From an uncultured Alphaproteobacteria bacterium (GTDB taxonomy: Bacteria > Pseudomonadota > Alphaproteobacteria > UBA9655), in assembly GCA_964597045.1 (NCBI GenBank), contig CAZQWE010000002.1, positions 181,175 to 245,174 of the forward strand: a DNA stretch of 64,000 nt, written 5' to 3'. Of the stretch, positions 3,001 through 16,875 are shown one piece after another; within the stretch, counting starts at the first letter, position 1, and each line of letters starts with the position of its first letter. A program made the translations under genes and the position numbers. Below the pieces are notes generated by a model. It saw only the letters and a program-made list of their open reading frames with translations. It was not told the origin of the DNA and did not search any database.

Positions 3001-3778
3001 AACGACTTTGATCAATCTTGCTTTAGATCCACAATCTTATCTGCAACGCTTACTGCATACACCTCAAAATCATCGTTTGGCTGCTTATTTGCGGTATATT
3101 CTTAAACTGTATAAGGATATCCTTGATACCGACGAGAGAGCGACGACCCTTGCTCAATTCCTCATTTCTGTACAAGGATGTGCTGTCGGTAAGTCAACCG
3201 CGTTTGAAGAAATCTACTTTTCTTTACCTAATACTTACCGCCTACCCTTTAGATGCAAAGAACAAAAATATCCAGCCGACTCAATGAAGGCATTTGAAAC
3301 CTTAAACGATGCTGTCCAAAAGCTAAGTATGGAACAACTCTCTGAAGGTAGTGCCTTTCTTAGGAAAGTTTGCCAAGTAGATTTAGATGATGACATCCAC
3401 GAGAGTGCTCATCAAGTAAAAGTCCTTCGAGGTGTTCTCAATGATTTTGTTGACTGTCCTGGAAAGCTTACATTCGATCTTAATGCTCAGCTCATTTATA
3501 TTCCAATTCTCGAGTCATCTCTCCAAGATTTGCTTATCCTTTATTATGCTGATGGAGATCTCGAGCAAATGATCACATCCCTCCGCAAGAAAGTGAATAG
3601 CGTCATTAAAACAAGCGAAGATAAGGCACTATATAGTCATTTTTCAAAGCTCTTTAATAATGATTTCGAGTGTATGAAGTTTGACGAGGACGATAAATTT
3701 AAAGGCGTGAGCCAAAAGGGTATGATTCGTCTATTGAAAAAGGCAAACATTGTTGAGGAAAAGGAAAGGTTGTTTTAG
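2..3778 (+). CDS. large hypothetical protein, 5'-partial (frame open to the window edge); helical-looking, family not recognised
   Basis: Uninterrupted 3.7 kb ORF. There is no in-frame stop between nt 2 and the listed first codon (GTG at 29), so the N-terminus probably lies upstream of the window. I can assign no catalytic or family motif. Confidence 0.6.
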   Translation, partial: VDVISALGRVPEERRKEISESLLKHPLPLCSDTNYINIIEMLATTSDLETFTAASKNLSKIKLENNQHKTKDACGNTIVNILQDLLFISKDHAKKAMFYILEGLITFKNIDDLERCVKLYTTDTKDPKKVTGALQWARHKLDLHPSNDDSIFHTLDCLCPLSPAHFHGTLVLLKEMERSKWKFQWSPEDFTNFTQAISELNPNDMKHSLTFAINIFNVKALEAKEFKGTTCAHIIRGVSKVPEGKEKEAFRAALNIASIASLHTAEEKALMVGSLLPVAFKLSDERSHKIRVLINKRFISSVNGYVLLANMSDERFNIVVNTLSRGESSLTVAIFKALGFADFVGGLDREVIFQHLVEIPPEGLESALYTIATCARGQNWSQEDYLKAIQLYKPKLASLSDFDPILETIFLGQKCYIERAEIKAKFSKVPPCQIAKYVNVFISLLGKHAWTGQEQLIVLESLLRTPAYKVRRVVETAGRFGTNARELAGYIDAFSPLPVLRMEHITETLSGYGFDIKEAIPVFGKKPINSMTRTRDLCMQLCKDLNVEQSPAKVFKELAYYESEGIEILAKVLPNQVTDLQLTEENIIRILQDLQSVKPDYIECILSGAKRLTKNNSEMFYQLAIPALASIRPQLMLWESIDAALELRGEQQWKVRETIDLIDGLAWVHESNREALIRSVKRYTLENPNCDPLKLNNLVLFLKDIHRDRIEIVLKTGLAITHNDVNQLFFKLGHGLDFLSDEALKTAEEICKHLKISKLKNFNNTTELLLNIPDHLHELIRPDLAPLARYKGQFRTICEVLPFLPETQIQHFLRAANGSALGNRKSFKKAYSDFETILINHALVMGIAGNEPINELFDHWRNVLNSEDQEKSRKLSNFISEYAEDMGFPEIDELADLAQRVGIVLAEDNEDSPYNIYARLKDKRNEMIDWTKIPTLDKIVGNCNLKFRAQGVWELCKGMDPDYSKVPQISSQDFTDLLVELRAKCQNDEFKAKIDAKQNITTLINLALDPQSYLQRLLHTPQNHRLAAYLRYILKLYKDILDTDERATTLAQFLISVQGCAVGKSTAFEEIYFSLPNTYRLPFRCKEQKYPADSMKAFETLNDAVQKLSMEQLSEGSAFLRKVCQVDLDDDIHESAHQVKVLRGVLNDFVDCPGKLTFDLNAQLIYIPILESSLQDLLILYYADGDLEQMITSLRKKVNSVIKTSEDKALYSHFSKLFNNDFECMKFDEDDKFKGVSQKGMIRLLKKANIVEEKERLF

Positions 3779-3812: not shown

Positions 3813-4562
3813 TTACCTCGTGCTCTCATTCACAATTTCCCAGAACTCATCCAGGTTGAGGCTCGCGCCTCCCACAAGGAGGCCATCTCCATGGGGGATA
3901 TCAAGGAAGGGCTGTGCATTCTTCGCGTTAATGGATCCCCCGTAAAGAGTTGGAACGAGAGCGCCACCTGTCATCTTTATATTCAATTCATGTTTGATAA
4001 ACCCAAGAACTTCTTCAACTTCTCCAGGTTTTGGAAGTTTACCCGTTCCTATCGCCCACAAGGGCTCATAAGCAATAATGATCTCATGAGGTTGATAGAT
4101 GTGTGGCAAATCTGATTCGATTTGCTGACCAATCACTTCGAGTGTTTTTCCATGATTACGCTCATCCTCCTTCTCGCCTACACAAATAATCGGTCGAATC
4201 CCTGCCTTAACTGCAGCCTCAACTTTTTGATGAATCAGAGCACTGGATTCCTTATGGTGATTTCGCCTTTCACTATGGCCCACAATGACATATTTACACC
4301 CCACATCTTTAAGCTGGGCGATACTGACATCCCCCGTATAAGATCCCTTTTCATCGGGGTGGGCGTCTTGGGCTCCCACCTCAATGGGTGAGTTTTTCAA
4401 TAAATCTACAACCGTTGTGAGGTAAGGATAAGACGGACATAAAATCACATGAGGTAAGGGGCGATCAGCTTTCTGAATGAGTTTTAGAAAACCAGATGCA
4501 AACTTCTGAGCATCTTCTTTCGTCCCATTCATTTTCCAATTTCCAATGATATATTGTTGCAT
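3813..4562 (-). CDS. tpiA: triosephosphate isomerase
   Basis: Motifs IIGNWKMNG, VIVGHSERR and AYEPLWAIGTG. I prefer the ATG at 4562 (MQQYIIGNWKMNG), which has GGAG 7-10 nt upstream, over the ORF-track start at 4607. Confidence 0.95.
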   Translation of the reverse strand: MQQYIIGNWKMNGTKEDAQKFASGFLKLIQKADRPLPHVILCPSYPYLTTVVDLLKNSPIEVGAQDAHPDEKGSYTGDVSIAQLKDVGCKYVIVGHSERRNHHKESSALIHQKVEAAVKAGIRPIICVGEKEDERNHGKTLEVIGQQIESDLPHIYQPHEIIIAYEPLWAIGTGKLPKPGEVEEVLGFIKHELNIKMTGGALVPTLYGGSINAKNAQPFLDIPHGDGLLVGGASLNLDEFWEIVNESTR

Positions 4563-4702
4563 CAATTCACTCCTCTGATATGTGTATCTTTTTTGCCAAT
4601 ATGACACAGGTCAGTCATTTTTGAAGTATATAATACAAAACATATACACATTTGTCAGATATTTCTGTATGATCCAATGAAAATAATAATGGTTAAGGCA
4701 GG

Positions 4703-5713
4703 ATGGCAGAACCAAATATCGAGGATATCCAAGGGCAAGTCAAAGCCGCACAAGAAAGTGCTATGGCTATAGCTCAGCAATTTCAACCTCCTCCTGTACC
4801 GCAAATTCCCTTGCCTCAAGCACCAGTCAGCATGGGTGGTGTATCCATTACAATGGGTAAAGTCTCTCTTCTCGCAACTGCGCTCAGCTTAATGATGCTT
4901 GGCGCACTAACTTTCGTAGGTGGCTTTTTATTTGGAATTTGGTTCGCAGGGCCTACACCTGCCTACACAGCTTATAATTTTCCAACCGTGCCGCAGATGG
5001 TTGTTGCTCCGACGCAACCGCAAACCGTGCAACAAGCCCCTGTTCAAGGTCAACCCGTCGCTCAAACGGTTAGAAGCGGAGCTGATGCAATTGGGTTCGG
5101 GCAAATTGCCTCAAGTCAAGCAAGAAATATAACTCAATCAACTATCACGGGCGTAACTGTTCCAGGAGTTCCTAGCTTTTTAACACCTCTTGTGACATCA
5201 ACTCAATATGCAATTGGCCAGCAACTTGGATACAAAGCACAACAGCAGGTTGGTCAAACTATGAGTCAGCCAGCTGCACCTGTAGCTCAACAACCTCAAG
5301 CTCAACCCCAGATGCAAATGCAACCTCAGCCACAACAGCAGCCCCAATATCAACCTCAACCAACGGCTCAACCGCAAATGCAAGCGCCTGCACAGCCTCA
5401 AGGAATGCCTCTTCCCCAAGCTCCCGCTCCCGTACCAGGAGCCAAAGCAGGTCAGGATGAATTTACAATCCAAGTTGGGGTATTTGCTACCTCTGAAAAT
5501 GCTCAATCATTAGTGGATCAATTAAAAGGTATGAACCATCCCTCACTAATTGTAGAAGGGAAGTCACAAGAGGGAACGCCACTCTATTATGTTCAAAGTG
5601 GCATGTATAAAGATTACACGACCGCAACTCAAGCAGCATCTCAATTTGCATCTCAAAACATGCCAGGTGCTCTTATTGTTAAGGTTTCCCAAAGTCAAAA
5701 GGGTGCTTCATGA
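4703..5713 (+). CDS. SPOR-domain (peptidoglycan-binding) membrane protein with a Gln/Pro-rich linker
   Basis: One TM segment (LLATALSLMMLGALTFVGGFLFGIWF). Long Q/P low-complexity tract. C-terminal FTIQVGVFATSENAQSLVDQLKG...YYVQSGMYKDYTTA is typical of SPOR domains. The stop overlaps the next start (ATGA at 5710-5713). Confidence 0.8.
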   Translation: MAEPNIEDIQGQVKAAQESAMAIAQQFQPPPVPQIPLPQAPVSMGGVSITMGKVSLLATALSLMMLGALTFVGGFLFGIWFAGPTPAYTAYNFPTVPQMVVAPTQPQTVQQAPVQGQPVAQTVRSGADAIGFGQIASSQARNITQSTITGVTVPGVPSFLTPLVTSTQYAIGQQLGYKAQQQVGQTMSQPAAPVAQQPQAQPQMQMQPQPQQQPQYQPQPTAQPQMQAPAQPQGMPLPQAPAPVPGAKAGQDEFTIQVGVFATSENAQSLVDQLKGMNHPSLIVEGKSQEGTPLYYVQSGMYKDYTTATQAASQFASQNMPGALIVKVSQSQKGAS

Positions 5714-6453
5714 AGCTATACAAACAATTCATTGGGATAAACAAAAAGTTACTTCAACCTGTTCTTGCCTCCCTCATTCTTGTTGCATGTTCAGGAGAGC
5801 CAAGACCTGATCTCTCCATAGACTCAGTCTCTATTTATGCTGATCCAGACGCTAATCAGAATTCGGCGATCGCAGTTGATCTTGTTCTTGTTTATGACTT
5901 AGAGCTTGTAAATACCCTCGCTAAGTTATCAGCATCAAAGTACTTTTCAATGTCTAAGCAGTTATTACTTGATAATCCAACAATGCTTGATATTTGGCAT
6001 TGGGAACTCGTCCCTGGTCAAATCGTGGATAATTTCACACCTGACCAAGAGGATGGCGATGCTTTTGCTGCCTTCGTTTTTGCTAATTATATAACGGACG
6101 GAGACCATAGAGTTAAGGTGGCACCTGATGGGGTCATCAAAATTATTCTCATGAAAGATGATCTTAAAAATTATGCTGTCTTTAATGCAACAGATCCTAA
6201 GGTTGGGAAAACTGTTACGGATAAGCCAAACCCATGGGTAGCCGGAGAGGGAGAAGACTCATTTGCAAAAATGAAAAAAGGACCCGTTACAGCCCCGAGC
6301 AAACCCTGCAAGAAAGCGGTTCAACCTCCCGTATGTTGTCCGCCCCCTCAACCCGTATGTTGTCCACCTCCGGTACAGCCTTGTCCAATTTCAAAACAAT
6401 CATTAGCACCCTTACCCCTATTAAAACCATGTCCCAAGAAGAAATTAAGGTGA
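5710..6453 (+). CDS. tssJ: TssJ-like type VI secretion outer-membrane lipoprotein with a Cys/Pro-rich C-terminal tail
   Basis: Lipobox LILVAC after a basic N-terminus. Core resembles TssJ/SciN (PDANQNSAIAVDLVLVYDL...F...WELVPGQ). It sits directly upstream of tssK-L-M. Tail: PPVCCPPPQPVCCPPPVQPCP. Confidence 0.55.
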   Translation: MKLYKQFIGINKKLLQPVLASLILVACSGEPRPDLSIDSVSIYADPDANQNSAIAVDLVLVYDLELVNTLAKLSASKYFSMSKQLLLDNPTMLDIWHWELVPGQIVDNFTPDQEDGDAFAAFVFANYITDGDHRVKVAPDGVIKIILMKDDLKNYAVFNATDPKVGKTVTDKPNPWVAGEGEDSFAKMKKGPVTAPSKPCKKAVQPPVCCPPPQPVCCPPPVQPCPISKQSLAPLPLLKPCPKKKLR

Positions 6454-6457
6454 TCAG

Positions 6458-7810
6458 ATGGCTCAAATAAATACTTATCCAATTCAATGGCATGAAGGCA
6501 TGTTAATGATGCCCCAACATTTCCAAGAATCTGATACCCGTCTCGAGAATCTTGTCACATACTTTGTTTCACATGCTGTCCCCTTCTTTTGGGGAACTAT
6601 TAATATTAAAGTGGATGATGCCTTGTTAACTTCTGGAGTATTCAGACCACTTGAACTTGAAGCTATTATGCCGGACGGCTTACTTATATCAGGCCTTCCT
6701 GAATCTGAAACACCTCTTCAAATTGATTTGGAGCCATTTAGAGATAAACTTCAATCAACGCCTCTTTATATTTATCTTTGCGTTCCTCAGCAAAGAGGTG
6801 CTGATTTAGATATCGTAGGGGATTTGCCAAGGTACCAATCAACTCTTTCTAAAAATGTCGTTGATATGAATACAGGAGACCGCGCTATAGATATTCCACG
6901 CCTTTCTCCCAATCTTTCTCTACAAGTTTCAGATACTCCACCCGCTCATTATGTATGTCTACCACTGGCACAAGTGACTTGTAATGCCAAGAGCTACTCA
7001 CAGACAAATTATATTCCGCCACAATTACAAGTTCCTACAACCTCATCCCTTGGAGATTTGTGCAACCAGCTCACCTTCCGTCTGAGACAGAAGCTTGCCT
7101 ATTTGCAGCAGAAAGTTCAATCCGTCGAGAAGAGAGCAACGCGGGATCCTTTTTTTGAAGAAATCGAAGAGATAAGATTAAAGTTAATCGCCGGTCTTAT
7201 CCCCTTCGAAACAGTTCTTTCTATTGGCAAAGCCCATCCGTTTAGCATTTACCTTGAACTTTGCAGCCTGGCGGGGCTCATTTCCGGCGTAAAGTATGGG
7301 GAAATTCCCCCTCCCTTTGATGCCTACGATCATGATGATTTGAATCAAACCTTTAAGCAAGTCATAGTCTATATAGATAAAGTTTTATCTGAGATTGAAG
7401 AGAGTTACACAGTCATTCCTTTCATACTCACTGAACGTGTCTTTACGTTGCAACTTCAATCTTCCTGGGTTAGTGATCGATTGGTGCTGGGAGCAAGGGC
7501 ACAACCGAGCATGTCTGAAAGTGATCTCCTTGCTTGGATCAAGAACTGCGTCATTGTAACAAGTGAGTTTATTGGTCTCGCAAAGGATAACAGAGTTCTC
7601 GGAGTCCCGCGAAAAATCGTTTCAGAAATTCCAGAAATGAATTTAGTTCCCTCACGGGGAGTTCAATTGTTTGTCATTGATGTGAATCCACAATACATAG
7701 ATCCCAAAGGGGTTCTCTGCTTATTTAACGTATCAGACAATGAGCTGAATCGCCCAACTGAAATTGTGCTTTATAATTCAAATAAAGCCAGTTCAAGAAA
7801 GGGGAGTTAA
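6458..7810 (+). CDS. tssK: type VI secretion baseplate protein TssK
   Basis: N-terminal IQWHEGMLMMPQHFQ is the hallmark TssK/VasE start. Size is 450 aa. Gene context tssJ-K-L-M. Confidence 0.85.
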   Translation: MAQINTYPIQWHEGMLMMPQHFQESDTRLENLVTYFVSHAVPFFWGTINIKVDDALLTSGVFRPLELEAIMPDGLLISGLPESETPLQIDLEPFRDKLQSTPLYIYLCVPQQRGADLDIVGDLPRYQSTLSKNVVDMNTGDRAIDIPRLSPNLSLQVSDTPPAHYVCLPLAQVTCNAKSYSQTNYIPPQLQVPTTSSLGDLCNQLTFRLRQKLAYLQQKVQSVEKRATRDPFFEEIEEIRLKLIAGLIPFETVLSIGKAHPFSIYLELCSLAGLISGVKYGEIPPPFDAYDHDDLNQTFKQVIVYIDKVLSEIEESYTVIPFILTERVFTLQLQSSWVSDRLVLGARAQPSMSESDLLAWIKNCVIVTSEFIGLAKDNRVLGVPRKIVSEIPEMNLVPSRGVQLFVIDVNPQYIDPKGVLCLFNVSDNELNRPTEIVLYNSNKASSRKGS

Positions 7811-7881
7811 CCATTTATTAACTAAATTACGTATAAAATTTTAGAGATTTGTATACAATAAAATAATAATGAAAAACTGTT

Positions 7882-8700
7882 TTGCATGACAGTTTAGAAC
7901 TAAAAAAGGAAAGAGAATCGGTGGCCCGATTTAACAGAGATAACGAGCGTACTACTTTTATTGTGGAATGCTTTGAAGAATTTTACAGGGAAGTACTTAA
8001 GTACAAACAACTTGTGTATTCAAGAGCTTGGGAAAAAGCGAGTGAGGACTCGAGTTCATCACCAGAAGCCATTGCTGAATATATCATTTCAAATTTACAA
8101 AACTATTTAGAGCAACAAGCTAAAACTGTCTCTTATGGTGGTGATAGCTTTGCTGAAAACTATTATGATGAAGCCCAATTCATTATGGTTGCCCTTGCTG
8201 ATGAGGTTTTTCTCTCAATTGATTGGCCAGGCCGCAAATATTGGGAAACCAACTTGCTTGAACAGCGTTTATATAATTCTCATAGCGCAGGACAAACATT
8301 TTTCGACGCGCTTGATGAACTCTTAGAAGCCCAAAACCCCATCAGGATTGATATTGCGAGCTTATACTTGAGTGCCTTAGGTTTAGATTTCCAAGGAAAA
8401 TATCGTCATTTTAGTGATGAGGGTGCTTTGGAGTCCTATCGTAAAAGATTATTCTCCTTTATTAATCGGAGAGAACCCTATTTATTTAAAGTAAAAACCA
8501 CCCTATTTCCTGAAGCCTATTCTCATACGCTCGAAGGAAGTGGAACTAAAGAATTACCCAATTTACGTAATTGGTACTATGTATTTGCTGGTTTAGCTCT
8601 CACCTACTTACTTATTTCATATATAATTTGGTATAGTGCAACATGGGATATTTCGAGGATATTAAACCGAATCATTAGCTATAACACAGGTGGCATCTAG
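7882..8700 (+). CDS. tssL: type VI secretion membrane protein TssL (DotU family)
   Basis: DotU-like core (IMVALADEVFL...W...LLEQRLY...GQTFFDALDELL...SLYLSALGLDFQGKY) followed by a single C-terminal TM (YVFAGLALTYLLISYIIWY). The start is non-ATG (TTG at 7882, or GTG at 7921). Confidence 0.8.
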   Translation: MHDSLELKKERESVARFNRDNERTTFIVECFEEFYREVLKYKQLVYSRAWEKASEDSSSSPEAIAEYIISNLQNYLEQQAKTVSYGGDSFAENYYDEAQFIMVALADEVFLSIDWPGRKYWETNLLEQRLYNSHSAGQTFFDALDELLEAQNPIRIDIASLYLSALGLDFQGKYRHFSDEGALESYRKRLFSFINRREPYLFKVKTTLFPEAYSHTLEGSGTKELPNLRNWYYVFAGLALTYLLISYIIWYSATWDISRILNRIISYNTGGI

Positions 8701-8708
8701 AGGAAATC

Positions 8709-11700
8709 ATGATAAGCGATAATTTAACACGACTTACTTATTTATTTCCTTGGAGTATCATATTCGCGCTTCTGCTTGCCGCGTTATTTGCCTTTATTGG
8801 CATACTTATTTTTAGGCGTTCTATAAAAAAAGCAGAAGAGGGTCCCAAACCTGTAACCCCAAACCCCTTCTTTGAAAAATCAAAAATATTATTAGCCCGA
8901 TATGGTTATGCTGCAACTGATCAATTATCGATATCTTTTACGAAAGCTCTAAAGCTTTTACATAATTATATTGGTGGTTCTGAGTTCCGTTACCAACTCC
9001 CTTGGGTGGTGATGTTAGGTGCGAGCAGTTCTGGCAAAAGTACCCTTTTAGATAATCTTGAAGTTGATCGTCCTATTGGACGCCCTCTTTTTACAGCTGA
9101 AGGTGAAGATAAGCCCCTTTGTGATTGGGCATTTTTTGATCATGGAGTTGTTCTTGATGTCAATGGCAAGCTCGTTATTGATGCCAATCAAGCAAGATCC
9201 GACGAGGCTCTCTGGGATTTATTTCTTAATCTTCTTACAAGTCATCGACCGAAACGACCTGTTGACGGTGTTGTTATTAACATCCCTGTAACAGAGTTAA
9301 TTGGTAAAGAAGCCTTATCCCATGAAGACATCTTGATTCGTGCTGATTATATTTATGAAAAACTTTGGCAAATGCAAAAAACAACAGGTTTAAGAATTCC
9401 TGTTTACTTTGTAATTACAAAATCTGACCTCATCCCAGGTTTTGAGAGTTTTTGTAAGTCCATCCCAAACAATAATAAAACGAATATTTTTGGTTGGTCT
9501 AATGATAAATCAATTGATACTGTCTATGTGACGGATTGGGTTGATGAAGCCTTTTTTACGATCAATGAAGCGCTTTATGTGGCTCAGGAAGAGATTTATG
9601 CAGAGAGTAAAAACATTGATGGACGGGATGGAGTCTTCTTATTTCCCATGGCCTTAAATAAGGTCAGAAGTGGTATAAAGACATATGCAAATCACATCTT
9701 TAAACCTTCTGGATATCATGAGTCCTTTTTCTTCAGAGGCATCTACTTTGTTGGAGATAGCCATATAGAAAGATCAAGAGCGAAATCTCAAGGGATTTCG
9801 CGGTTAGCCGTATCAAAGGAAACTCGGTCCGATTCTAAAAGTAAGAACATCTATTTTATAAGAGATTTATTTGAAAAGAAAATTTTCAGAGAAATAGGTT
9901 TAGCAAGACCCGTATCAAGAGTTCTTTTAGGCAATACTAATTCTCTAAGACTGTTGAAAATTGGAGTCGTTATTGTTTCCATTTTGGGAACTCTTGAGTT
10001 ATTAATTTCCAACTCAAAATTAAATACAGCCAAAGTCAATCTAACACCCGTTCTTAAACAAGTTGAACTCTCCCTTGAGAAGATTCGCGGGCAGAGCGAC
10101 TCGGCAAGTAACAATCGAACATTTTTTTATGATCAGGCTCAAATGCTTTTGAATACAATGGCGCAAGTAAGAGCAAACTCTCTGTCCGCACCCTTTATTC
10201 CTGCTTCTTGGTTTTCGAATATAAATAGCAAAATAAGCTTCGTCATGGGACTTGCCTATGACCAAGTTATACTTAAATCCATGTCAAGCCAATTAGCCTA
10301 TAAAGCGCAGCAACTCGTCGATATCAACACGGTCCTTCCCGTAGCACAGCAGCCTGGGAATGGCATTGACCCTCTTCAAACTACAGAATTTTACCAACTG
10401 CAAAAGTATGTGCTTTCTATGAGAGAACTCGAACTTGCAACCAATAAATTCAATGAATTAGGGCTTGCTTCCAATTTGAAAGATGTCGCTGATATCATTA
10501 AATATCTTTTTGAATTTGACATGCCAGCTGAATTCCTTACCCATGATCTCTATTTTAAGGATGCTCTCGCTAAATCCCATAATAAGCTCTTTGATCTTGA
10601 GTCCTATAGAGAGGATGCATCAATTAAGCTGAATAAGTTATTTGATCAATTTGAAAATGCTGTTTTTGACCCTGTAAGGATGATTCCAGGCCTTGGATTC
10701 CTCATGACAAGTATTAATGCTATTTCAGGCTCCAATTACGGCACAGGAGGAGAAAGTCAAGCAGCTAATGATGTTGACAGCCTCCATCAAGTTTATCAAA
10801 GCCTTCAAGACACAAATAATTCTATAGCTAACCCAGGATTTAGTTGGTTAAACTATGATTATTTTAGTCCGGGCCCCCAATATGAATACGTTATGGGACA
10901 AATTTTTGAGTCAACAGTTTTTTCCGTATCAACATCAGCAGAACTTAAAACTGAAATTGATCAAAATTTTATCGGTTTCAGAAAGAAACTTGCTGAATAC
11001 AAATCGAGCCTCATTGATGGTGGGAATCTGTTTGATGTAGAAAATGGATTAGCCTTAGCTAGACCCTCACTCGGTTCACTTCGTTTACAACAAAACTTAG
11101 CCCTCTTCTTCTCCGAACCATTTATGGCTCGCGCTGAAGATCGCACAATTGTTGTCTCCATCCCCTTAGGATCTACACTCCTTTGGGATACCCTTCGACT
11201 ACAACAAAGTGTTTCTTTAATTAGTTCTTATAACGATTTTATTAATTCACGACTTTTAGGGCTTCCTAAGAATCTTCAACCCATGCTTCAAAAAGTAGCC
11301 CGAGAGAGTCTCGCTAGAAATCTCGTACAACAGATTGCCAACGCTCAAGTTTTAAGCACGGTGAACTTTAGAGAAAATAGCTTTGCACCTGAAGATGCTT
11401 TACTTACGCAAATTCAAAACTACCGTTCATCTGCACCCTTCCTTCAGCAAATTTTATTCTCATTAAATGCGAATAACATTAACGCAGCCTTTAGTACATT
11501 GAAGCAACTTCTTACTAATGAAAACTATAGTCTTTTAACGAAGCTTGATGGTATTTTAAGTGAAGAAGGACCGTATGCCATTAAAATGGATTCTTTCGAG
11601 TGGTGGAAGGGCAATAATATGGCAGCTCTTGAAGCGTATGGAGCAAATACTCTAGCTGAACTAAAGAATTATCTTGATCTTCAAAGAGATCGTATTGCCT

Positions 11701-12905
11701 ATCTTGCCCAAGAGTTTGCAGAACCGGTTGTTTCCTTCTTGGAACTCATTAACTCAGAGGGTATGCATGCTGATCTTCCTCTCATGAACAAATGGGCGGG
11801 TATCATCAATGAGCTGAATGGCTATAAACGCAAAGCGCCAGGAAATGGTCTCACTGAACTTGAATCATATATTTTGAAACCTCTTAATGAAGTAACACTT
11901 GACACCTGTGATAAGTATACCAAGCTGTATAACAATTACACATTAAAAGGCGATTATTTCGTTAATGTGCTTGTTGACTTGGAAGATAAACTCCATAAGC
12001 AGTGTGCAAACCTTTCAGGGTTTGTTTCAGTCGATAACTATACTCAACTGGCTAATTTCTTTAATGCAAACTTAGCAGGGCGTTTCCCCTTTACAGAGGA
12101 AGTCAAAGGGCAAGCAGATGCTTCTCCTGAGGACATAAGAACATTCTTCCAAATGATGGATTCTCAAGCCGCTGGAATAAAAGCCACCTTAAAGCAAGCC
12201 AAAGATTTAGGACCAGCCGGTAAAAAGGCTTTTGTCTTTATTGAGCAAATGGAAGGTGTCCGGAAATTCTTTGGTGGATTCTTGGTTCCAGATTCCTTGT
12301 TACCTTACCCTTCTTACACCTTTGATGTGGCTTTTAGGGTCAATAAACAAAGAGAAGTCAGAGGAAACGAAGTTCTTGATTGGCAAGTTACATCCGGTGG
12401 AACTACTTTTAATATGCGTTCGCCTTCTCATAAATGTGGATGGAAGGTTGGTAACCCTGTTAAAGTAACTTTTAGATGGGCGGCTAACAGTCCACTCCAA
12501 CCCCTTGTTACTGAAGGTTCCTCAGGATTATCTGTTGATGGTGAATATGCTAGCTATTCGTATGGTGGAACATGGGGACTTATTCGTCTCTTAAGAGAGC
12601 ATCAAGCTAAGACTTGTGATTTTGATAACTTAAATGATGATCAGCCAACGACTCTTCGTTTCAATATCCCTTTAACAAATGTAATGTCTGGTACTGGTCT
12701 GTCAAATACAGACCCACTAAAAGCTACAGTCTTTCTCAGATTTGTAACATCACCCGTGCCTAATCCAAAACCAAAGAAGGGTGAAGCTCCTAAAGAGGAA
12801 GAAGAATCCAAAGAAGGTGATCAAACAAAAATCAAAGTCGGCGAACCTGTTGCCCTACCCTTCTTCCCGTTCAATGCCCCTAATATCAAAGGAGCGGCGA
12901 TGTAA
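8709..12905 (+). CDS. tssM: type VI secretion membrane protein TssM (IcmF family), 1398 aa
   Basis: Walker A GASSSGKST (nt 9018-9044). IcmF motif PVYFVITKSDLIPGFESF. N-terminal TM plus a second TM near residue 415. Long periplasmic region. Charged K/E/P tail at the C-terminus. Confidence 0.9.
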   Translation: MISDNLTRLTYLFPWSIIFALLLAALFAFIGILIFRRSIKKAEEGPKPVTPNPFFEKSKILLARYGYAATDQLSISFTKALKLLHNYIGGSEFRYQLPWVVMLGASSSGKSTLLDNLEVDRPIGRPLFTAEGEDKPLCDWAFFDHGVVLDVNGKLVIDANQARSDEALWDLFLNLLTSHRPKRPVDGVVINIPVTELIGKEALSHEDILIRADYIYEKLWQMQKTTGLRIPVYFVITKSDLIPGFESFCKSIPNNNKTNIFGWSNDKSIDTVYVTDWVDEAFFTINEALYVAQEEIYAESKNIDGRDGVFLFPMALNKVRSGIKTYANHIFKPSGYHESFFFRGIYFVGDSHIERSRAKSQGISRLAVSKETRSDSKSKNIYFIRDLFEKKIFREIGLARPVSRVLLGNTNSLRLLKIGVVIVSILGTLELLISNSKLNTAKVNLTPVLKQVELSLEKIRGQSDSASNNRTFFYDQAQMLLNTMAQVRANSLSAPFIPASWFSNINSKISFVMGLAYDQVILKSMSSQLAYKAQQLVDINTVLPVAQQPGNGIDPLQTTEFYQLQKYVLSMRELELATNKFNELGLASNLKDVADIIKYLFEFDMPAEFLTHDLYFKDALAKSHNKLFDLESYREDASIKLNKLFDQFENAVFDPVRMIPGLGFLMTSINAISGSNYGTGGESQAANDVDSLHQVYQSLQDTNNSIANPGFSWLNYDYFSPGPQYEYVMGQIFESTVFSVSTSAELKTEIDQNFIGFRKKLAEYKSSLIDGGNLFDVENGLALARPSLGSLRLQQNLALFFSEPFMARAEDRTIVVSIPLGSTLLWDTLRLQQSVSLISSYNDFINSRLLGLPKNLQPMLQKVARESLARNLVQQIANAQVLSTVNFRENSFAPEDALLTQIQNYRSSAPFLQQILFSLNANNINAAFSTLKQLLTNENYSLLTKLDGILSEEGPYAIKMDSFEWWKGNNMAALEAYGANTLAELKNYLDLQRDRIAYLAQEFAEPVVSFLELINSEGMHADLPLMNKWAGIINELNGYKRKAPGNGLTELESYILKPLNEVTLDTCDKYTKLYNNYTLKGDYFVNVLVDLEDKLHKQCANLSGFVSVDNYTQLANFFNANLAGRFPFTEEVKGQADASPEDIRTFFQMMDSQAAGIKATLKQAKDLGPAGKKAFVFIEQMEGVRKFFGGFLVPDSLLPYPSYTFDVAFRVNKQREVRGNEVLDWQVTSGGTTFNMRSPSHKCGWKVGNPVKVTFRWAANSPLQPLVTEGSSGLSVDGEYASYSYGGTWGLIRLLREHQAKTCDFDNLNDDQPTTLRFNIPLTNVMSGTGLSNTDPLKATVFLRFVTSPVPNPKPKKGEAPKEEEESKEGDQTKIKVGEPVALPFFPFNAPNIKGAAM

Positions 12906-13957
12906 TGGCCTTTAATAACAACCTCTCCCTCTTCTTTGAATCCATATCAGATAACCCACCTTGTGGACCATCGCTCAGGTATTCAGAAACTTATGATAAA
13001 ATTAAAAATGCAAGACATGAGGAAGATGATCGGCTCGCTCAAGGTATCTGGAAAAGTGAAGTTAAAAAGGCCGATTGGGATATGGTGGACAGACTCTGTC
13101 GGGATACTCTTCAAACGAAATCAAAGGATTTGCAAATTGCCGCATGGCTAACTGAAGCCTGGCTCCACCTTGAAGGAATGGGAGGATTAACCCAAGGGTT
13201 AGAGCTCATTCTTGAGCTCACTAAAACCTATTGGGATAATATTCACCCTCAGATTGATCAAGGCAGCTTCGATTTGAGAATTGTCCCTTATGAATGGATC
13301 AACACGAGACTTAGTGAAGAAATTCAGTTTGTAAAGATTACCATGCCAGCAGCTCGAACAACCCTTCCCTATCATTTAGTCGACTATAATGACGCCAATC
13401 GACATGTTATTTCCGGAAAAAAAGATGGTGAACTTCCGACAGGTAAACCTTCGCTTTCTAAAATAACAACAAGCATTGAACAAACTCCAGCTGCTTTCTA
13501 TCAATCAATAGATGAGAATTGTAAGAAGGCCTTAGCTTTGATAGAGAACATTGAAGAACTCCTTCATGAAAAACTGGTCGGAGATACCCCTAGTTTTTAC
13601 CGAATAAAAGAAAAGATAAGCATCGTTCAACGCTTTGCCCAGCACATTCTTGCTGAAAGAGGTGAAAAAATGGCAGCCCTACACCCCACTCCAGAAGCGC
13701 CCACTAAAGAACCAACTTCCAAAAAGAAAACCCCTGGCCCAATTGACAGTCGTGACCAAGCTTATGCCATGCTTGGTGAAATTGCCTCTTATCTTGAAAA
13801 GATTGAACCCCATAGTCCAACCCCCTATTTGATTCGTCGCTCCATTACATGGGGTAGCATGACTCTCAGTGAAGTCTTTGCTGATGCCACAGCGAATGGG
13901 AAGGACCTATCGCTTATACTTGATATTCTGGATGTAAAGAAAGAAAATCAGCACTAA
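12905..13957 (+). CDS. tssA: type VI secretion protein TssA (ImpA N-terminal domain family)
   Basis: ImpA_N signature PCGPSLRYSETYDKIKNARHEEDD...ADWDMV...SKDLQIAAWLTEAW...GGL..GLELI. C-terminal EPHSPTPYLIRRSITWG motif. One-nt overlap with the tssM stop. Confidence 0.8.
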   Translation: MAFNNNLSLFFESISDNPPCGPSLRYSETYDKIKNARHEEDDRLAQGIWKSEVKKADWDMVDRLCRDTLQTKSKDLQIAAWLTEAWLHLEGMGGLTQGLELILELTKTYWDNIHPQIDQGSFDLRIVPYEWINTRLSEEIQFVKITMPAARTTLPYHLVDYNDANRHVISGKKDGELPTGKPSLSKITTSIEQTPAAFYQSIDENCKKALALIENIEELLHEKLVGDTPSFYRIKEKISIVQRFAQHILAERGEKMAALHPTPEAPTKEPTSKKKTPGPIDSRDQAYAMLGEIASYLEKIEPHSPTPYLIRRSITWGSMTLSEVFADATANGKDLSLILDILDVKKENQH

Positions 13958-14045
13958 GCCTTAAGAATCGTCATTGTGAAGATTGCACTTGTTTTTTAAT
14001 TATTAGTATTTATATTTATAAATATTAATTTTTTTGGTGCGCATT

Positions 14046-16796
14046 ATGAAATATATTTACCCTTTGCTCTTCTCAACAATATTGTTTTTACGCCATGATG
14101 CTTTAGCTATGAACGATAACAATAATAATACTAAATATTCTGATGAAGATCCAATTCATCAACAAAGGAGAAAAGCAAGTGAAGACTTTTCAAAAGAAGT
14201 ACAAGAAAAATCTGATGTTCTTTTAAAAGCTGCCGATTCATTATTGAAGGATTCAGAGGACAATAAGCTTAAAGCTGCTATTGAAAAATGTAAAAAAGAG
14301 ATTTGCAGCTATCGTGAGAGTACTGTCAAGTCAACAATAGCTACTCGAGATAATAAACCTGTACTCCCCTTCTACGATCCCCATTTTGTAGATTTTGTTT
14401 CCTTCCATTTTTATCGTCAAGAAATCATAAATTTAGCTACAAGGTATAATAAAGGTTCTACGGAATATATTTTTTTTTATAAAACTTTTAATTATTTTAA
14501 TTTAATCGCGCAACATTTATCCGATCTACAAAAATTTTATTTACTAAATATTACACCTACAAAAAATAGTGCCCCATCTGATCCTTCAGCAAGAACTCCT
14601 ATGCATATAAATTCAAAGCATCTTTGGGAGAGAATTATAAAACTGAAGACCTTCTCATTGTCTTGTATTGAAGCAACTAACGTAGATAAACTTGATATAC
14701 CTTTAAATATGAAGGTTTATTTTAATGTCTGTTTTAAGGAAATGAAAGAAGAGTTAAATAATATTTGTTCTGATTGTCCCCTACAAATCGATGATATCAT
14801 CAATTCCAATAATGAAGAAAATCTTCAAACCTTTGATTCTTTGGTTTTTGAAAATTTTGATATAGTCAATAGTATGACTTCTTTTCTTTGTGGACATACT
14901 GGAATAGAACTTCTAAGTGCAACTAAACAACTTAGGTGGGTTTATCCTCTCAATTTTGATTTCTATAATGATGATAAAAAAGTTAAAGGTAGGGATAAAC
15001 TTACTAAGGATCAAATTGCCCCTAACATACCTATATTTGATGAAATGTGGAAAGATATTGTATGGAAATCTGATGATAAATCAAATACTGGCATTTCTTG
15101 GTTAAATCATTTAGAAGAAATTGATAATCCACAAGCGAATTTGCATGAAATAAAAACTTACGGTCAAGAATTTTTTACGGAATTCGAAGCAAGTTACCAA
15201 GATGTATGGAAAGCTCGTAAGGCTGTTGAAAAATCGCCCTTAAATGAAAAAGATAAAGCGATCGCCCTTAATATTCTGAAACAATCATTTGACTCTATGT
15301 CGAAGCACGGGGGGGCCATCAAGAGAGATGTTAATCAAGGGATCATAACAACTAGAGATGATGTTAATAGAATTACTTTTATCCCATATTGTAAACAGTA
15401 TCATCTTAGAAAGGCCTTGCACGAATTGCTTGCAAATAAAGAATATGAAACCATTCATGATGCAGTGAATAAGGCCCTCGATGCAATGGGTGTATTTGAA
15501 AGACACTTTTTACATCAAAACAATTTTCTTATTGATAACTTAGAGATTAAAGAGGGAGCTAAAATAGATGGGATTCAACGATATTGTATCACTTTCAATC
15601 CACGCAAAGCTCTCGTTAATTTAAAAATAAGAGCTCGGCAGTTAGAACTTATTGCCAGTTCTATTAATTTAGAACGCTTAAAGTTACCAGATGATTATAA
15701 GGCTCAAATTGCTGGCAAACAAAAGCTCCTAAGACAAGAACTTAAAAACCTTTTAAAAAATAATGAAATCAATAAAGTGATGAAGGCCCCACTATGGAAA
15801 ACACTTGATGTGGATTTATCCGGAGATTTAAAAGGTGTTACATTTGGAATACCTGATATGTTGATTACAAATGAAGAGCTTATAAGAAATGCATCTATTG
15901 CCTTTTTAAACCCCCTCATGATCACATTTGTTATGAATAACAATCAAATAATTTCGTTAACAAAGGATCAAATTGAAGAAAACCTTCCCTTATGGGATTC
16001 AATGTGTCTTAATTTCCAAGATAAGAAAACCGCTGTTACGGGAAACCAAAAACCTTCAGCAAATAAAGGAAAAAGTAAAAAGAAAGGAAGAAAGAAACAA
16101 GTAGTAATAGAAAAAAAGAAAAATAATATAGTTGTTCCTATTACAACTATTGTTCAACAAGATGAAAAACCTATTGTTGAGCAACCTAGCTTCGAACCAG
16201 TTACTGCCCCTAATGAACAAAACCTAGAAAAATGTGATAACCCCGCCCCATATAATGCAAAGAAGCAACGAGAAGAGCTTATTCTCTGGCTTAGAGATAT
16301 TTTAAATACTTCTAAGGAAAAGAAGGAGCTCTTTATCGTTTACGACCGTGCTCACTGCTTAGTCCGCCAATTGGACCATCATCCTGAGCTTTTTGATACG
16401 GAAGAATCCTTAAGCCCTCTTCAAGATATTGCGCAAAGACTTTGTGATCAAATATCTCATATTCAAAACAAATCTAAAGTCATAAAGAAGGAAAGAATCG
16501 CTGTGCCCTTTAGAGCTCTTCCCCTTTACTTGTCTTTTATGGAGTCCAGTGTATCCGACCTTGTTGGAATTCGATTTGGCCGTGTGAGAACGCTCTTTGA
16601 AAGTCTTGGCATTAAGATTGATACATCTCGTGCGGGTTCAAGAGTGCATTTTGAGTACGGAAACCATGCCACCTCAATCCATATCCATGATAAGCATGAT
16701 GAGCCGTTAGAAGGCGGCAGAATCTCCTCCCTTCGTAAATTCCTTTGGGAAATTGGATTTACGACTGATGATGGAGATGAAGAGGAATCAAATTGA
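14046..16796 (+). CDS. secreted orphan protein, paralog A: signal peptide, divergent helical body, Lys-rich linker, conserved C-terminal HicA-like module
   Basis: Signal peptide MKYIYPLLFSTILFLRHDALA (the ATG at 14046 is preferred over the TTG at 14034). Full-length collinear similarity to the next gene. The last 105 aa are identical to paralog B. Confidence 0.7.
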   Translation: MKYIYPLLFSTILFLRHDALAMNDNNNNTKYSDEDPIHQQRRKASEDFSKEVQEKSDVLLKAADSLLKDSEDNKLKAAIEKCKKEICSYRESTVKSTIATRDNKPVLPFYDPHFVDFVSFHFYRQEIINLATRYNKGSTEYIFFYKTFNYFNLIAQHLSDLQKFYLLNITPTKNSAPSDPSARTPMHINSKHLWERIIKLKTFSLSCIEATNVDKLDIPLNMKVYFNVCFKEMKEELNNICSDCPLQIDDIINSNNEENLQTFDSLVFENFDIVNSMTSFLCGHTGIELLSATKQLRWVYPLNFDFYNDDKKVKGRDKLTKDQIAPNIPIFDEMWKDIVWKSDDKSNTGISWLNHLEEIDNPQANLHEIKTYGQEFFTEFEASYQDVWKARKAVEKSPLNEKDKAIALNILKQSFDSMSKHGGAIKRDVNQGIITTRDDVNRITFIPYCKQYHLRKALHELLANKEYETIHDAVNKALDAMGVFERHFLHQNNFLIDNLEIKEGAKIDGIQRYCITFNPRKALVNLKIRARQLELIASSINLERLKLPDDYKAQIAGKQKLLRQELKNLLKNNEINKVMKAPLWKTLDVDLSGDLKGVTFGIPDMLITNEELIRNASIAFLNPLMITFVMNNNQIISLTKDQIEENLPLWDSMCLNFQDKKTAVTGNQKPSANKGKSKKKGRKKQVVIEKKKNNIVVPITTIVQQDEKPIVEQPSFEPVTAPNEQNLEKCDNPAPYNAKKQREELILWLRDILNTSKEKKELFIVYDRAHCLVRQLDHHPELFDTEESLSPLQDIAQRLCDQISHIQNKSKVIKKERIAVPFRALPLYLSFMESSVSDLVGIRFGRVRTLFESLGIKIDTSRAGSRVHFEYGNHATSIHIHDKHDEPLEGGRISSLRKFLWEIGFTTDDGDEEESN
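16470..16783 (+). repeat. near-identical 3' tract of paralog A (copy 1 of 2)
   Basis: 16470-16657 is identical to 19231-19418 (188 nt, offset 2761). The next ~125 nt carry 8 substitutions, all synonymous. Confidence 0.9.
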
Positions 16797-16875
16797 AATA
16801 CAGAGGCAATCTCTCCCTTGATTTTTTCATCTAAATATTTATGTATAATAATATAATTATTTTTTGGTGAGCATT

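What the first reader, a model, noticed from the sequence alone, without database searches (positions are those of the whole stretch)
4703..13957. Stand-alone T6SS membrane-complex/anchor block (SPOR gene plus tssJ-K-L-M-A) with no contractile-machine genes in view
Six consecutive same-strand ORFs have overlaps or gaps of at most 8 nt, except one 71-nt gap. They carry hand-recognisable signatures. TssJ has the lipobox LVAC. TssK starts IQWHEGMLMMPQHFQ. TssL has a DotU core plus a C-terminal TM. TssM/IcmF is 1398 aa with Walker A GASSSGKST and ITKSDLIPGF. TssA has an ImpA_N domain. Nothing resembling tssB, tssC, hcp, vgrG, PAAR, tssE/F/G or clpV occurs in the 4.7 kb upstream or the 50 kb downstream. 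Three explanations are possible. The system may be split across the genome. This may be a reduced or repurposed envelope-spanning module. Or the missing parts may be too divergent to recognise. In what looks like a reduced intracellular alphaproteobacterium, any of these would be worth characterising.
Basis: partly seen in the sequence, partly recalled or inferred. Interest (0 to 1): 0.7.

Follow-up and report, generated by a model that had tools for sequence, protein, structure and literature searches.

The report
One piece of a scattered T6SS
This six-gene block is the envelope-anchoring operon of a type VI secretion system whose other genes are known to sit at separate places in the genomes of Holosporales-type intracellular bacteria, so it is a real but already described arrangement.

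Summary
Six tightly packed + strand ORFs at 4703-13957 encode a SPOR-domain membrane protein, a TssJ-like lipoprotein, TssK, TssL, TssM and TssA. No other T6SS core gene is detectable in the 64 kb window or in 5.3 kb further upstream.

It is not a stand-alone or repurposed module. The closest relatives are uncultured Holosporales-like alphaproteobacterial MAGs; named ones are Bealeia, Caedibacter/Paracaedimonas and Odyssella. Midha et al. [quoted passage not shown]

My comparison of 78 related loci agrees:
- Members from other phyla and from free-living alphaproteobacteria carry one contiguous tssJ-K-L-M-A-B-C-hcp-E-F-G(-clpV) cluster.
- All 15 loci of the window's clade end at tssA.

I could not locate tssBC in the window's own organism, so the split is inferred by analogy.

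Two modest additions:
- The SPOR gene immediately upstream of tssJ is conserved from Azospirillum to Holosporales, which suggests a peptidoglycan anchor.
- A divergent TssJ is present, although a recent review says it is lacking.

Low interest.

The parts
4608..4702 (.). Divergent intergenic region between tpiA (-) and the SPOR gene (+). Presumed promoter region of the six-gene operon.
   Evidence: Inference only. It holds one + strand and one - strand sigma-70-like match, but the scan as a whole found no more than chance (27 sites against 24.1 expected). The tpiA(-)|SPOR(+) junction is conserved in 14 of 15 clade loci.
4703..5713 (+). Bitopic inner-membrane protein with a C-terminal SPOR (peptidoglycan-binding) domain and a Q/P-rich linker. 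Proposed peptidoglycan anchor of the membrane complex.
   Evidence: PF05036 E 1.2e-12 at residues 253-325. One TM at about 51-72. 4-nt overlap with tssJ. A SPOR ORF lies immediately upstream of tssJ in 15 clade loci, in 8 more distant Holosporales-like loci and in Azospirillum brasilense.
5710..6453 (+). Divergent TssJ-like outer-membrane lipoprotein (lipobox LVAC, Cys27) with a Cys/Pro-rich C-terminal tail.
   Evidence: No Pfam or NCBIfam hit. 39% identity (E 4e-18) to the ORF upstream of tssK in complete cluster L006. The lipobox Cys is invariant in the 15-sequence alignment. PF12790 SciN is hit by only 2 of 15 homologues, at E 0.01. Foldseek top 7 PDB hits are TssJ structures: 4a1r, 6ixh_A, 3zhn, 3rx9 (prob 0.82-0.98), from a pLDDT-53 model.
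6458..7810 (+). TssK, the baseplate subunit that docks the baseplate onto the membrane complex.
   Evidence: PF05936 E 4.7e-42. TIGR03353 E 2.3e-62, 211 bits against a 100-bit cut-off.
7882..8700 (+). TssL (DotU family), short form. Tail-anchored, with no peptidoglycan-binding extension.
   Evidence: PF09850 E 2.4e-25. TM at 234-252 of 272 residues. No OmpA or SPOR domain found.
8709..12905 (+). TssM/IcmF, 1398 aa. N-terminal TM(s), cytoplasmic Walker A NTPase domain, TM at 415-438, then a roughly 960-aa periplasmic region that is helical with a C-terminal beta domain.
   Evidence: PF14331 E 3.1e-48. TIGR03348 matches only profile positions 79-499. Periplasmic part: no Pfam hit even at E 10 and no PDB sequence hit. 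AF2 model pLDDT 82. The whole-domain Foldseek search was uninformative. The precomputed domain list is the same (PF14331 only) for all 120 homologues listed, including P0112, whose locus is a complete cluster.
12905..13957 (+). TssA, which caps and coordinates tube and sheath polymerisation.
   Evidence: PF06812 ImpA_N E 9.4e-38. TIGR03363 E 1.5e-80, 271 bits against a 161-bit cut-off, full length.

Best explanation
The block is one operon of a dispersed but otherwise ordinary contractile type VI secretion system of an uncultured Holosporales-like intracellular alphaproteobacterium.

What it encodes:
- The envelope-spanning membrane complex: TssJ lipoprotein, TssL and TssM.
- TssK, the adaptor that docks the baseplate onto that complex.
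- TssA, the cap protein that coordinates tube and sheath growth.
- A lineage-conserved accessory: a bitopic SPOR-domain protein.

Proposed role of the SPOR protein. It most likely ties the complex to peptidoglycan. In other systems that role falls to the OmpA-like extension of TssL or to TagL. The TssL here is the short, extension-less form.

Where the rest is. The sheath, tube, spike and remaining baseplate genes (tssBC-hcp, tssE, tssFG, vgrG) are expected at other loci of the same genome, as published for related families. The ancestral state is a single cluster, or two divergent arms as in Azospirillum. Genome rearrangement in the endosymbiont lineage scattered the arms but kept this operon intact.

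Shown: gene identities, operon-like packing, conservation of the block and of its boundaries, contiguous clusters in outgroups, and separate tssB-tssC-hcp loci in related MAGs.

Inferred: the other loci exist in this particular organism; the six genes form a single transcript; the SPOR protein acts as an anchor.
For: - Family assignments.
- Homologues: the best TssM homologues are Holosporales-like MAGs, Ca. Bealeia (43%), Paracaedimonas/Caedibacter (32%) and Odyssella (30%).
[quoted passage not shown] In Ca. Bodocaedibacter, CPBP_00933 (lipoprotein) to CPBP_00936 (TssK, TssL, TssM) are listed consecutively, with CPBP_00937 following, and the paper's RNA-seq shows them transcribed.
- Review PMC11909080: the T6SS is conserved in almost all Holosporineae genomes.
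- Local tblastn map of 78 loci. Nine loci from Thermoanaerobaculia/Acidobacteriota, Desulfobacteraceae, Nitrospinota and two alphaproteobacterial MAGs carry a contiguous run from tssL-tssM-tssA through tssB-C-hcp-E-F-G (clpV seen in seven). tssJ and tssK upstream were detected in six of them; the three Nitrospinota loci gave no hit for either. All 15 loci of the window's clade (TssM 47-69% identical) have SPOR-tssJ-K-L-M-A and no further T6SS gene in the 5-9 kb held downstream.
- Azospirillum brasilense p1 has SLT-SPOR-SPOR-tssJ-K-L-M-A as one arm. The other arm, divergent and about 6 kb away, is tssB-C-E-F-G-clpV-vgrG.
- Separate tssB-tssC-hcp(-tssE) loci flanked by housekeeping genes occur in related alphaproteobacterial MAGs (L087, L171-L176, L177).
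- Precedent for the SPOR role: 14 DotU/TssL homologues carry a C-terminal SPOR fusion (PMC3326028).
Against: - I did not find tssB, tssC, hcp, vgrG or tssEFG of the window's own organism. Its NCBI contig (296,649 bp) is not in the look-up index. The species is not among the GTDB representatives. The one metagenome scan was saturated by a universal TssC motif.
- None of the MAGs with separate tssBC loci could be tied to the window's clade.
- The periplasmic two-thirds of TssM has no detectable similarity to the canonical IcmF periplasmic domains. This is true of the whole subtype, including complete clusters.
- The TssJ assignment rests on a low-confidence model.
- The promoter and terminator scans are no better than chance, so the single-operon claim rests on gene spacing alone.
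Confidence: 0.85

Rival explanations
1. A truly reduced or repurposed envelope module. This lineage has lost sheath, tube and spike everywhere in the genome and keeps SPOR-TssJ-K-L-M-A for another purpose, such as a static envelope conduit or anchor.
For: No contractile gene in 64 kb plus 5.3 kb. The organism's own tssBC was not found by any route I had. Holospora shows that the T6SS can be lost in this order (PMC11909080).
Against: - TssK and TssA have no known role without a baseplate and a sheath.
- The same isolated block is the published norm in relatives that do carry tssBC, hcp, vgrG and tssEFG elsewhere.
Confidence: 0.05
2. A decaying relic. The other loci are gone and this operon is a not-yet-eroded remnant on its way to pseudogenisation.
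For: Reduced endosymbiont genomes do shed systems piecemeal. A neighbouring gene, tpiA, is called as two fragments in the JGI assembly of the same locus.
Against: - All six ORFs are intact, including the 1398-aa tssM.
- The proteins of the block recur at 99-100% identity (exact matches for the SPOR and TssA proteins) in assemblies of four independent samples.
- All six are conserved as full-length genes across 15 clade loci at 30-68% protein identity.
Confidence: 0.05
3. The missing parts are present in the window but too divergent to recognise, for example hidden in the large unannotated ORFs next to the block (1249/1336, 920 and 897 aa).
For: Several large ORFs without any Pfam or NCBIfam hit flank the block. 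Hcp is divergent in some relatives: the 188-aa ORF after tssC has no Pfam hit in L087 and L177.
Against: - TssC is 62-85% and TssB 43-71% identical across phyla within this subtype. tblastn with them finds nothing in the window.
- The 920-aa and 897-aa ORFs are absent from every related locus and have no PDB sequence match.
- Their sizes do not fit any core component.
Confidence: 0.03
4. An ordinary contiguous T6SS locus cut by the window edge.
For: The window starts only 4.7 kb upstream of the block.
Against: - The same locus on JGI contig Ga0370205_000066 shows an ABC-F ATPase, two zf-UBP proteins and an LRR protein upstream.
- Housekeeping tpiA on the opposite strand bounds the block in 14 of 15 clade loci.
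- In contiguous clusters of this subtype, tssB follows tssA directly. Here tssA is followed by unrelated genes for 50 kb.
Confidence: 0.02

Closest known systems
tssJ-like/tssK/tssL/tssM/tssA locus (CPBP_00933 onward) of Ca. Bodocaedibacter vickermanii, and the dispersed T6SS of Bodocaedibacteraceae, Paracaedibacteraceae and Caedimonadaceae (Midha et al. 2021, PMC8163844)
   Same: Same gene order: lipoprotein-TssK-TssL-TssM, with tssA following. Same isolation from tssBC-hcp, tssFG and vgrG. Same kind of host-dependent Holosporales-type bacterium. Transcribed in Bodocaedibacter.
   Different: The window's organism belongs to a different, undescribed clade. Its TssM is only 26% identical to that of UBA6184, the MAG the paper uses as the comparison genome for Bodocaedibacter. 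The SPOR gene is part of the block here, whereas the only SPOR protein that search found in the Bodocaedibacter supplementary tables is CPBP_00644, elsewhere in the genome. The other three loci were not located for this organism.
T6SS cluster on Azospirillum brasilense MTCC4039 replicon p1 (NZ_CP032346.1, locus L170)
   Same: Same subtype: TssK 34.5% identical, E 1e-79. SPOR gene(s) lie directly upstream of tssJ-K-L-M-A as one arm.
   Different: Free-living bacterium. The second arm, tssB-C-E-F-G-clpV-vgrG, lies divergently about 6 kb away, so the system is in one place. There are two SPOR genes plus an SLT lytic-transglycosylase gene upstream.
Contiguous tssJ-K-L-M-A-B-C-hcp-E-F-G-clpV clusters of Thermoanaerobaculia/Acidobacteriota, Desulfobacteraceae and alphaproteobacterial MAGs, with the tssL-onward equivalent in Nitrospinota (L006, L042-L044, L060, L064, L069, L080, L086)
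   Same: Homologous TssK/L/M/A (26-44% identity) and, in six of the nine loci, a homologous TssJ-like ORF. The homologues listed, which include P0112 of complete cluster L006, share the unusual TssM in which only PF14331 is recognised.
   Different: All core genes are contiguous. The three I checked (L006, L042, L060) have no SPOR gene upstream of tssJ.
Peptidoglycan anchoring of the T6SS membrane complex by the OmpA-like extension of TssL or by TagL (established knowledge), and DotU-SPOR fusion proteins (PMC3326028)
   Same: A peptidoglycan-binding domain is attached to, or encoded with, the TssL/TssM inner-membrane part. SPOR has already been seen fused to 14 DotU homologues.
   Different: Here SPOR is on a separate bitopic protein encoded first in the operon. 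No interaction with TssL or TssM has been shown. The anchoring role is inferred from conserved gene linkage.
TssJ-TssL-TssM membrane core complex of enteroaggregative E. coli (PDB 6ixh, 3rx9, 4y7o)
   Same: Lipoprotein, tail-anchored DotU protein and three-TM Walker A protein with a large periplasmic domain. The TssJ model's best PDB matches include 6ixh_A, 3rx9 and 4y7o_D.
   Different: The TssM periplasmic region is about 960 aa and unrecognisable by sequence. The window's TssJ misses the SciN Pfam model and carries a Cys/Pro-rich tail.

Membership tests
T6SS baseplate subunit TssK | Full-length match to TIGR03353 / PF05936 above the curated cut-off | tested here: met
   TIGR03353 211.5 bits (cut-off 100), E 2.3e-62. 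PF05936 E 4.7e-42.
T6SS TssL (DotU family) | DotU cytoplasmic domain followed by a single C-terminal TM anchor | tested here: met
   PF09850 89.8 bits (cut-off 27). TM at 234-252 of 272. TIGR03349 scores 80.1 bits, just below its 89.95 cut-off.
T6SS TssM (IcmF family) | N-terminal TM segments, cytoplasmic Walker A NTPase / IcmF-related_N domain, third TM | tested here: met
   PF14331 164.8 bits. GASSSGKST at 104-112. TM at 6-35 and 415-438.
T6SS TssM (IcmF family) | Periplasmic IcmF-related and IcmF C-terminal (TssJ-binding) domains recognisable by the family models | tested here: not met
   TIGR03348 covers only profile positions 79-499 and scores 210 against a 388-bit cut-off. Residues 501-1398 have no Pfam hit at E 10. 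No PDB sequence hit. Foldseek with the whole 959-aa model (pLDDT 82) gave only non-specific helical matches. The precomputed domain list is likewise PF14331 only for all 120 homologues listed, including P0112 of a complete cluster, so this is a subtype trait rather than decay.
T6SS lipoprotein TssJ (SciN/VasD) | Signal peptide with lipobox cysteine; gene next to tssK/tssL/tssM | tested here: met
   LVAC with Cys27, an invariant column in the 15-homologue alignment. The gene is always directly upstream of tssK.
T6SS lipoprotein TssJ (SciN/VasD) | Match to PF12790, or a transthyretin-like TssJ fold | tested here: inconclusive
   The window protein has no PF12790 hit. Two of 15 homologues hit it at E 0.01. 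hhalign against one Rahnella TssJ: E 0.011, probability 3.7%. Single-sequence AF2 model pLDDT 53, yet the top 7 Foldseek PDB hits are TssJ structures, prob 0.82-0.98, TM about 0.4.
T6SS TssA | ImpA_N domain and full-length match to a TssA equivalog model | tested here: met
   TIGR03363 271.5 bits (cut-off 160.85) over residues 6-338. PF06812 E 9.4e-38.
Complete contractile T6SS (13 core components) | tssB, tssC, hcp, vgrG, tssE, tssF, tssG (and clpV) present with the membrane complex | tested here: not met
   None is present in the window or in 5.3 kb upstream. Presence elsewhere in the genome could not be tested with these tools.
Dispersed Holosporales T6SS (Midha et al. 2021) | tssK-tssL-tssM-tssA contiguous and separated from the other core loci; Holosporales-type organism | tested here: met
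   Block boundaries as published. The relatives are Holosporales-like. All 15 clade loci end at tssA.
Dispersed Holosporales T6SS (Midha et al. 2021) | [tssB-tssC-hcp], [tssG-tssF] and [ywqK-vgrG] loci elsewhere in the same genome | not testable with these tools
   The genome is not in the GTDB representative set. Its NCBI contig is not in the look-up index.
Dot/Icm type IVB secretion (IcmF/DotU as accessory pair) | IcmF and DotU accompanied by dot/icm genes and lacking TssK, TssA and TssJ | tested here: not met
   TssK, TssA and a TssJ-like gene flank TssL and TssM. No Dot/Icm family appears among the window ORFs scanned.
SPOR-domain peptidoglycan-binding proteins | PF05036 above the gathering score, exported or periplasmic location | tested here: met
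   48.4 bits (cut-off 21) at residues 253-325. A single TM at about 51-72 precedes it. The periplasmic orientation is inferred.

The most novel reading that the evidence does not exclude
In this particular lineage the sheath, tube and spike genes are absent from the whole genome. The conserved SPOR-TssJ-K-L-M-A operon then works without a contractile apparatus, as a repurposed envelope-spanning module. My evidence does not exclude this, only because I could not search the rest of the genome.
Probability: 0.04. Interest if true: 0.75.

Novelty: new member of a known kind. Interest (0 to 1): 0.2.

Why it matters
It matters little as a discovery. It is a further instance, in an undescribed clade of Holosporales-like symbionts, of a T6SS whose genes are scattered over the genome, and that pattern is already published.

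Two points are useful for annotation:
- A divergent TssJ lipoprotein sits in the canonical place upstream of tssK, both across these symbionts and in the complete clusters of the same subtype. The reported 'missing TssJ' of the Holosporineae T6SS (PMC11909080) is therefore probably a detection failure.
- A SPOR-domain membrane protein encoded directly before tssJ is conserved from Azospirillum to Holosporales. It is a reasonable candidate for the peptidoglycan anchor of this subtype, whose TssL lacks the usual anchoring extension. Azospirillum is culturable, so the idea could be tested there.

Tried and rejected
1. Exact-protein look-ups to extend the locus. TssK, the first ORF and the Slt protein were not on record. 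TssA, SPOR and TssM reached only short Logan contigs and one JGI contig.

2. Genome-collection scan with the first ORF: nothing found, so the species is not a GTDB representative.

3. Three routes to the organism's own TssC:
   - A homologue search seeded with a Thermoanaerobaculia TssC returned only Acidobacteria.
   - A search seeded with the TssC of alphaproteobacterial MAG L038 returned 120 Holosporales-type TssCs. None was traceable to the window's samples.
   - A metagenome scan with a hand-built TssC pseudo-query was saturated, because the tool chose the universal motif ITDRREKE.

4. I first assumed that TssC P0368 came from the genomes of L020 and L021. The look-up showed it comes from MKSY01 (bacterium 43-37) and JAFKFD01, so that link was dropped. 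TssM P0005 did not come from MKSY01 either.

5. Profile search of the TssJ family against PDB sequences: nothing relevant.

7. Foldseek with the whole TssM periplasmic model: uninformative.

8. Promoter and terminator scans: no better than chance.

9. Rejected readings: Dot/Icm IcmF/DotU pair, locus cut by the window edge, hidden divergent core genes (see rivals).


Full report
**Observation.** Profile searches assign five of them firmly:
- SPOR domain: PF05036, E 1.2e-12.
- TssK: TIGR03353 at 211 bits against a 100-bit cut-off.
- TssL: DotU PF09850, E 2.4e-25.
- TssM: IcmF-related_N PF14331, E 3.1e-48.
- TssA: TIGR03363 at 271 bits against a 161-bit cut-off.

A hydropathy scan gives the expected topologies. 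The SPOR protein has one TM at about 51-72. TssL has one C-terminal TM at 234-252. TssM has TM segments at 6-35 and 415-438, which bracket the Walker A domain (GASSSGKST at 104-112).

**The TssJ candidate.** The 247-aa ORF at 5710-6453 has no Pfam or NCBIfam hit. Three lines of evidence still point to TssJ:
- It is 39% identical (E 4e-18) to the small ORF directly upstream of tssK in a complete Thermoanaerobaculia T6SS cluster.
- Every homologue in the same position carries a lipobox, and the cysteine is invariant in the alignment.
- The model is poor (single sequence, pLDDT 53), yet its seven best PDB matches are solved TssJ structures: 4a1r, 6ixh_A, 3zhn and 3rx9, with probabilities of 0.82-0.98.

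Sequence-level support is weak. Only 2 of 15 homologues hit PF12790, at E 0.01. I call it a probable, divergent TssJ.

**Nothing else from a T6SS is in view.** Pfam on the remaining candidate coding ORFs of 100 aa or more finds housekeeping genes: the isc operon, dapB, nth, prmC, xseA, nusA-infB-rbfA, smpB, dapA and others. It also finds an autotransporter and a few repeat proteins, but no T6SS family. tblastn of the whole window with TssB, TssC, Hcp, TssE, TssF, TssG and ClpV from a complete cluster of the same subtype finds nothing. The same holds for TssB, TssC and the Hcp-like protein of an alphaproteobacterial relative, and for a Rahnella VgrG. This test has good power, because TssC of this subtype is 62-85% identical across phyla. 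The same locus occurs on JGI contig Ga0370205_000066. There the 5.3 kb upstream of the window start hold the start of the first ORF (really 1336 aa), a small ORF, an ABC-F ATPase, two zf-UBP proteins and an LRR protein. The locus is therefore not cut by the window edge.

**Whose genome.** The best TssM homologues (47-69% identical) are unnamed alphaproteobacterial MAGs. Named relatives are Ca. Bealeia paramacronuclearis (43%), Ca. Paracaedimonas/Caedibacter acanthamoebae (32%), Caedimonas and Ca. Odyssella (30%). These are Holosporales, obligate symbionts of protists. GC of about 41% and eukaryote-like domains nearby (zf-UBP, LRR, Sel1) fit.

**What is known.** Midha et al. 2021 (PMC8163844) describe the T6SS of Ca. 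Bodocaedibacter vickermanii. [quoted passage not shown] Their expression table lists CPBP_00933 (membrane lipoprotein), 00934 TssK, 00935 TssL and 00936 TssM as consecutive genes, followed by 00937, and RNA-seq shows them transcribed. A 2025 review calls the T6SS conserved in almost all Holosporineae genomes except Holospora, and 'probably non-standard' for apparently lacking TssJ and Hcp (PMC11909080). The finding is thus the published arrangement, seen in a new lineage.

**Comparative check.** A scan of one genome per GTDB species with a TssM alignment gave 78 loci with 10-kb flanks. I mapped them by local tblastn.
- Nine loci carry a contiguous run from tssL-tssM-tssA through tssB-C-hcp-E-F-G, with clpV seen in seven. 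They come from Thermoanaerobaculia/Acidobacteriota, Desulfobacteraceae, Nitrospinota, one alphaproteobacterial MAG and one Rhodospirillales MAG. tssJ and tssK were detected upstream in six of them; the three Nitrospinota loci gave no hit for either.
- All 15 loci of the window's clade have SPOR-tssJ-K-L-M-A and no further T6SS gene in the 5-9 kb available downstream. In 14 of them tpiA on the opposite strand bounds the block upstream.
- The flanks beyond the block are shuffled. The isc operon lies upstream of tpiA in L011 and L014 but downstream of tssA, inverted, in the window. ELM1 and the aminotransferase follow tssA directly in L008 but lie 18.5 kb away in the window.
- One alphaproteobacterial MAG (L038) is intermediate, with an inverted tssB-C-E about 3 kb after tssA.
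- Separate tssB-tssC-hcp(-tssE) loci flanked by housekeeping genes occur in related MAGs (L087, L171-L176, L177).

The simplest history is an ancestral single cluster broken up by rearrangement in the symbiont lineage, with this operon kept whole.

**The SPOR gene.** It overlaps tssJ by 4 nt, and tight spacing is conserved. An ORF with a SPOR domain ends between 4 nt inside and 15 nt before tssJ in nine further loci:
- the clade member L008, by its called genes;
- Caedibacter acanthamoebae;
- seven other Holosporales-like MAGs.

In Azospirillum brasilense MTCC4039 p1, two SPOR ORFs preceded by an SLT lytic-transglycosylase ORF lead into tssJ-K-L-M-A. The other arm, tssB-C-E-F-G-clpV-vgrG, lies divergently about 6 kb away. 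The three contiguous clusters outside this group that I checked have no SPOR gene there. TssL here is the short form without a peptidoglycan-binding extension. SPOR has also been seen fused to 14 DotU homologues (PMC3326028). I therefore propose that the SPOR protein anchors the membrane complex to peptidoglycan. This is an inference from gene linkage and domain content, not a demonstrated function.

**TssM.** Only the N-terminal third matches known models. Residues 501-1398 have no Pfam hit at E 10 and no PDB sequence match. An AlphaFold model built on 32 homologues is confident (pLDDT 82). It shows a long helical region and a C-terminal beta domain, the general layout expected of TssM, but Foldseek with the whole model gave only non-specific helical matches. 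All 120 homologues listed, including one from a complete cluster, likewise have PF14331 as their only precomputed domain. This is a trait of the subtype, not a sign of decay.

**What I could not do.** I did not find tssBC, hcp, vgrG or tssEFG of the window's own organism.
- Its species is not in the GTDB representative collection.
- Its 296,649-bp NCBI contig is not in the look-up index.
- The homologue searches returned TssCs from other organisms.
- The single metagenome scan was saturated by a universal TssC motif.

The split is therefore inferred from the literature and from conserved block boundaries in 15 related genomes.

**Verdict.** The arrangement is already published, so this is a new member of a known kind and of low interest. 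The residual novel reading, a lineage that truly lacks the contractile part, has a probability of about 4%.

Noticed in passing
window 14034-16796 and 16864-19557 (+): Two paralogous large ORFs (920 and 897 aa, 30-33% identical to each other) lie directly downstream of tssA on the same strand. They have no Pfam, NCBIfam or PDB sequence match and no counterpart in any of the 78 related loci. The first sits in a GC trough: 31% at 14-16 kb, against about 41% elsewhere. Possibly lineage-specific effector candidates or a recent insertion.
   Followed up: partly
window 29-3778 (+); L003 1-9077: The first ORF is really 1336 aa and starts upstream of the window. It has no known domain and is only 95% identical between the window and the JGI copy, while the neighbouring genes are 99-100% identical. 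Just upstream lie two small zf-UBP (eukaryotic ubiquitin-binding zinc finger) proteins and an LRR_5 protein. This looks like a patch of host-interaction candidates.
   Followed up: partly
window 3813-4607 (-); L003 9112-9860: tpiA is one intact ORF in the window but is called as two fragments (82 and 170 aa) in the JGI assembly of the same locus. This is either an assembly frameshift or strain-level pseudogenisation.
   Followed up: no
window 14000-34700 compared with L008, L011, L014, L020: Gene order around the conserved block is shuffled between clade members. ELM1 and an aminotransferase follow tssA directly in L008 but are 18.5 kb away and inverted here. The isc operon is upstream of tpiA in L011 and L014 but downstream of tssA and inverted here.
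   Followed up: partly
window 10026-12902 (TssM residues 440-1398): The roughly 960-aa periplasmic part of TssM is unrecognisable to Pfam and to PDB sequence searches, yet it models confidently (pLDDT 82) as a helical region plus a C-terminal beta domain. The whole homologue set listed, including a member from a complete cluster, shares the PF14331-only domain list.
   Followed up: partly
L087 2099-2665, L177 11517-12083, L171 11538-12101: The ORF after tssC is about 188 aa in all three loci. It hits the Hcp Pfam model in one relative (L171) and not in the other two. Hcp may therefore be divergent rather than missing in some Holosporales, which could explain the 'apparent lack' noted in the 2025 review.
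   Followed up: no
L170 (Azospirillum brasilense p1) 14328-19488: Between the two T6SS arms lie a HAMP-SpoIIE/PP2C phosphatase, an SLT lytic-transglycosylase ORF and two SPOR ORFs. This is a peptidoglycan-related accessory set for the subtype.
   Followed up: partly
window 36715-39594 (-), 50008-51582 (+), 52412-52837 (+): A 959-aa autotransporter with a PATR repeat (type V secretion), a Sel1-repeat protein and a PIN-domain protein lie elsewhere in the window.
   Followed up: no
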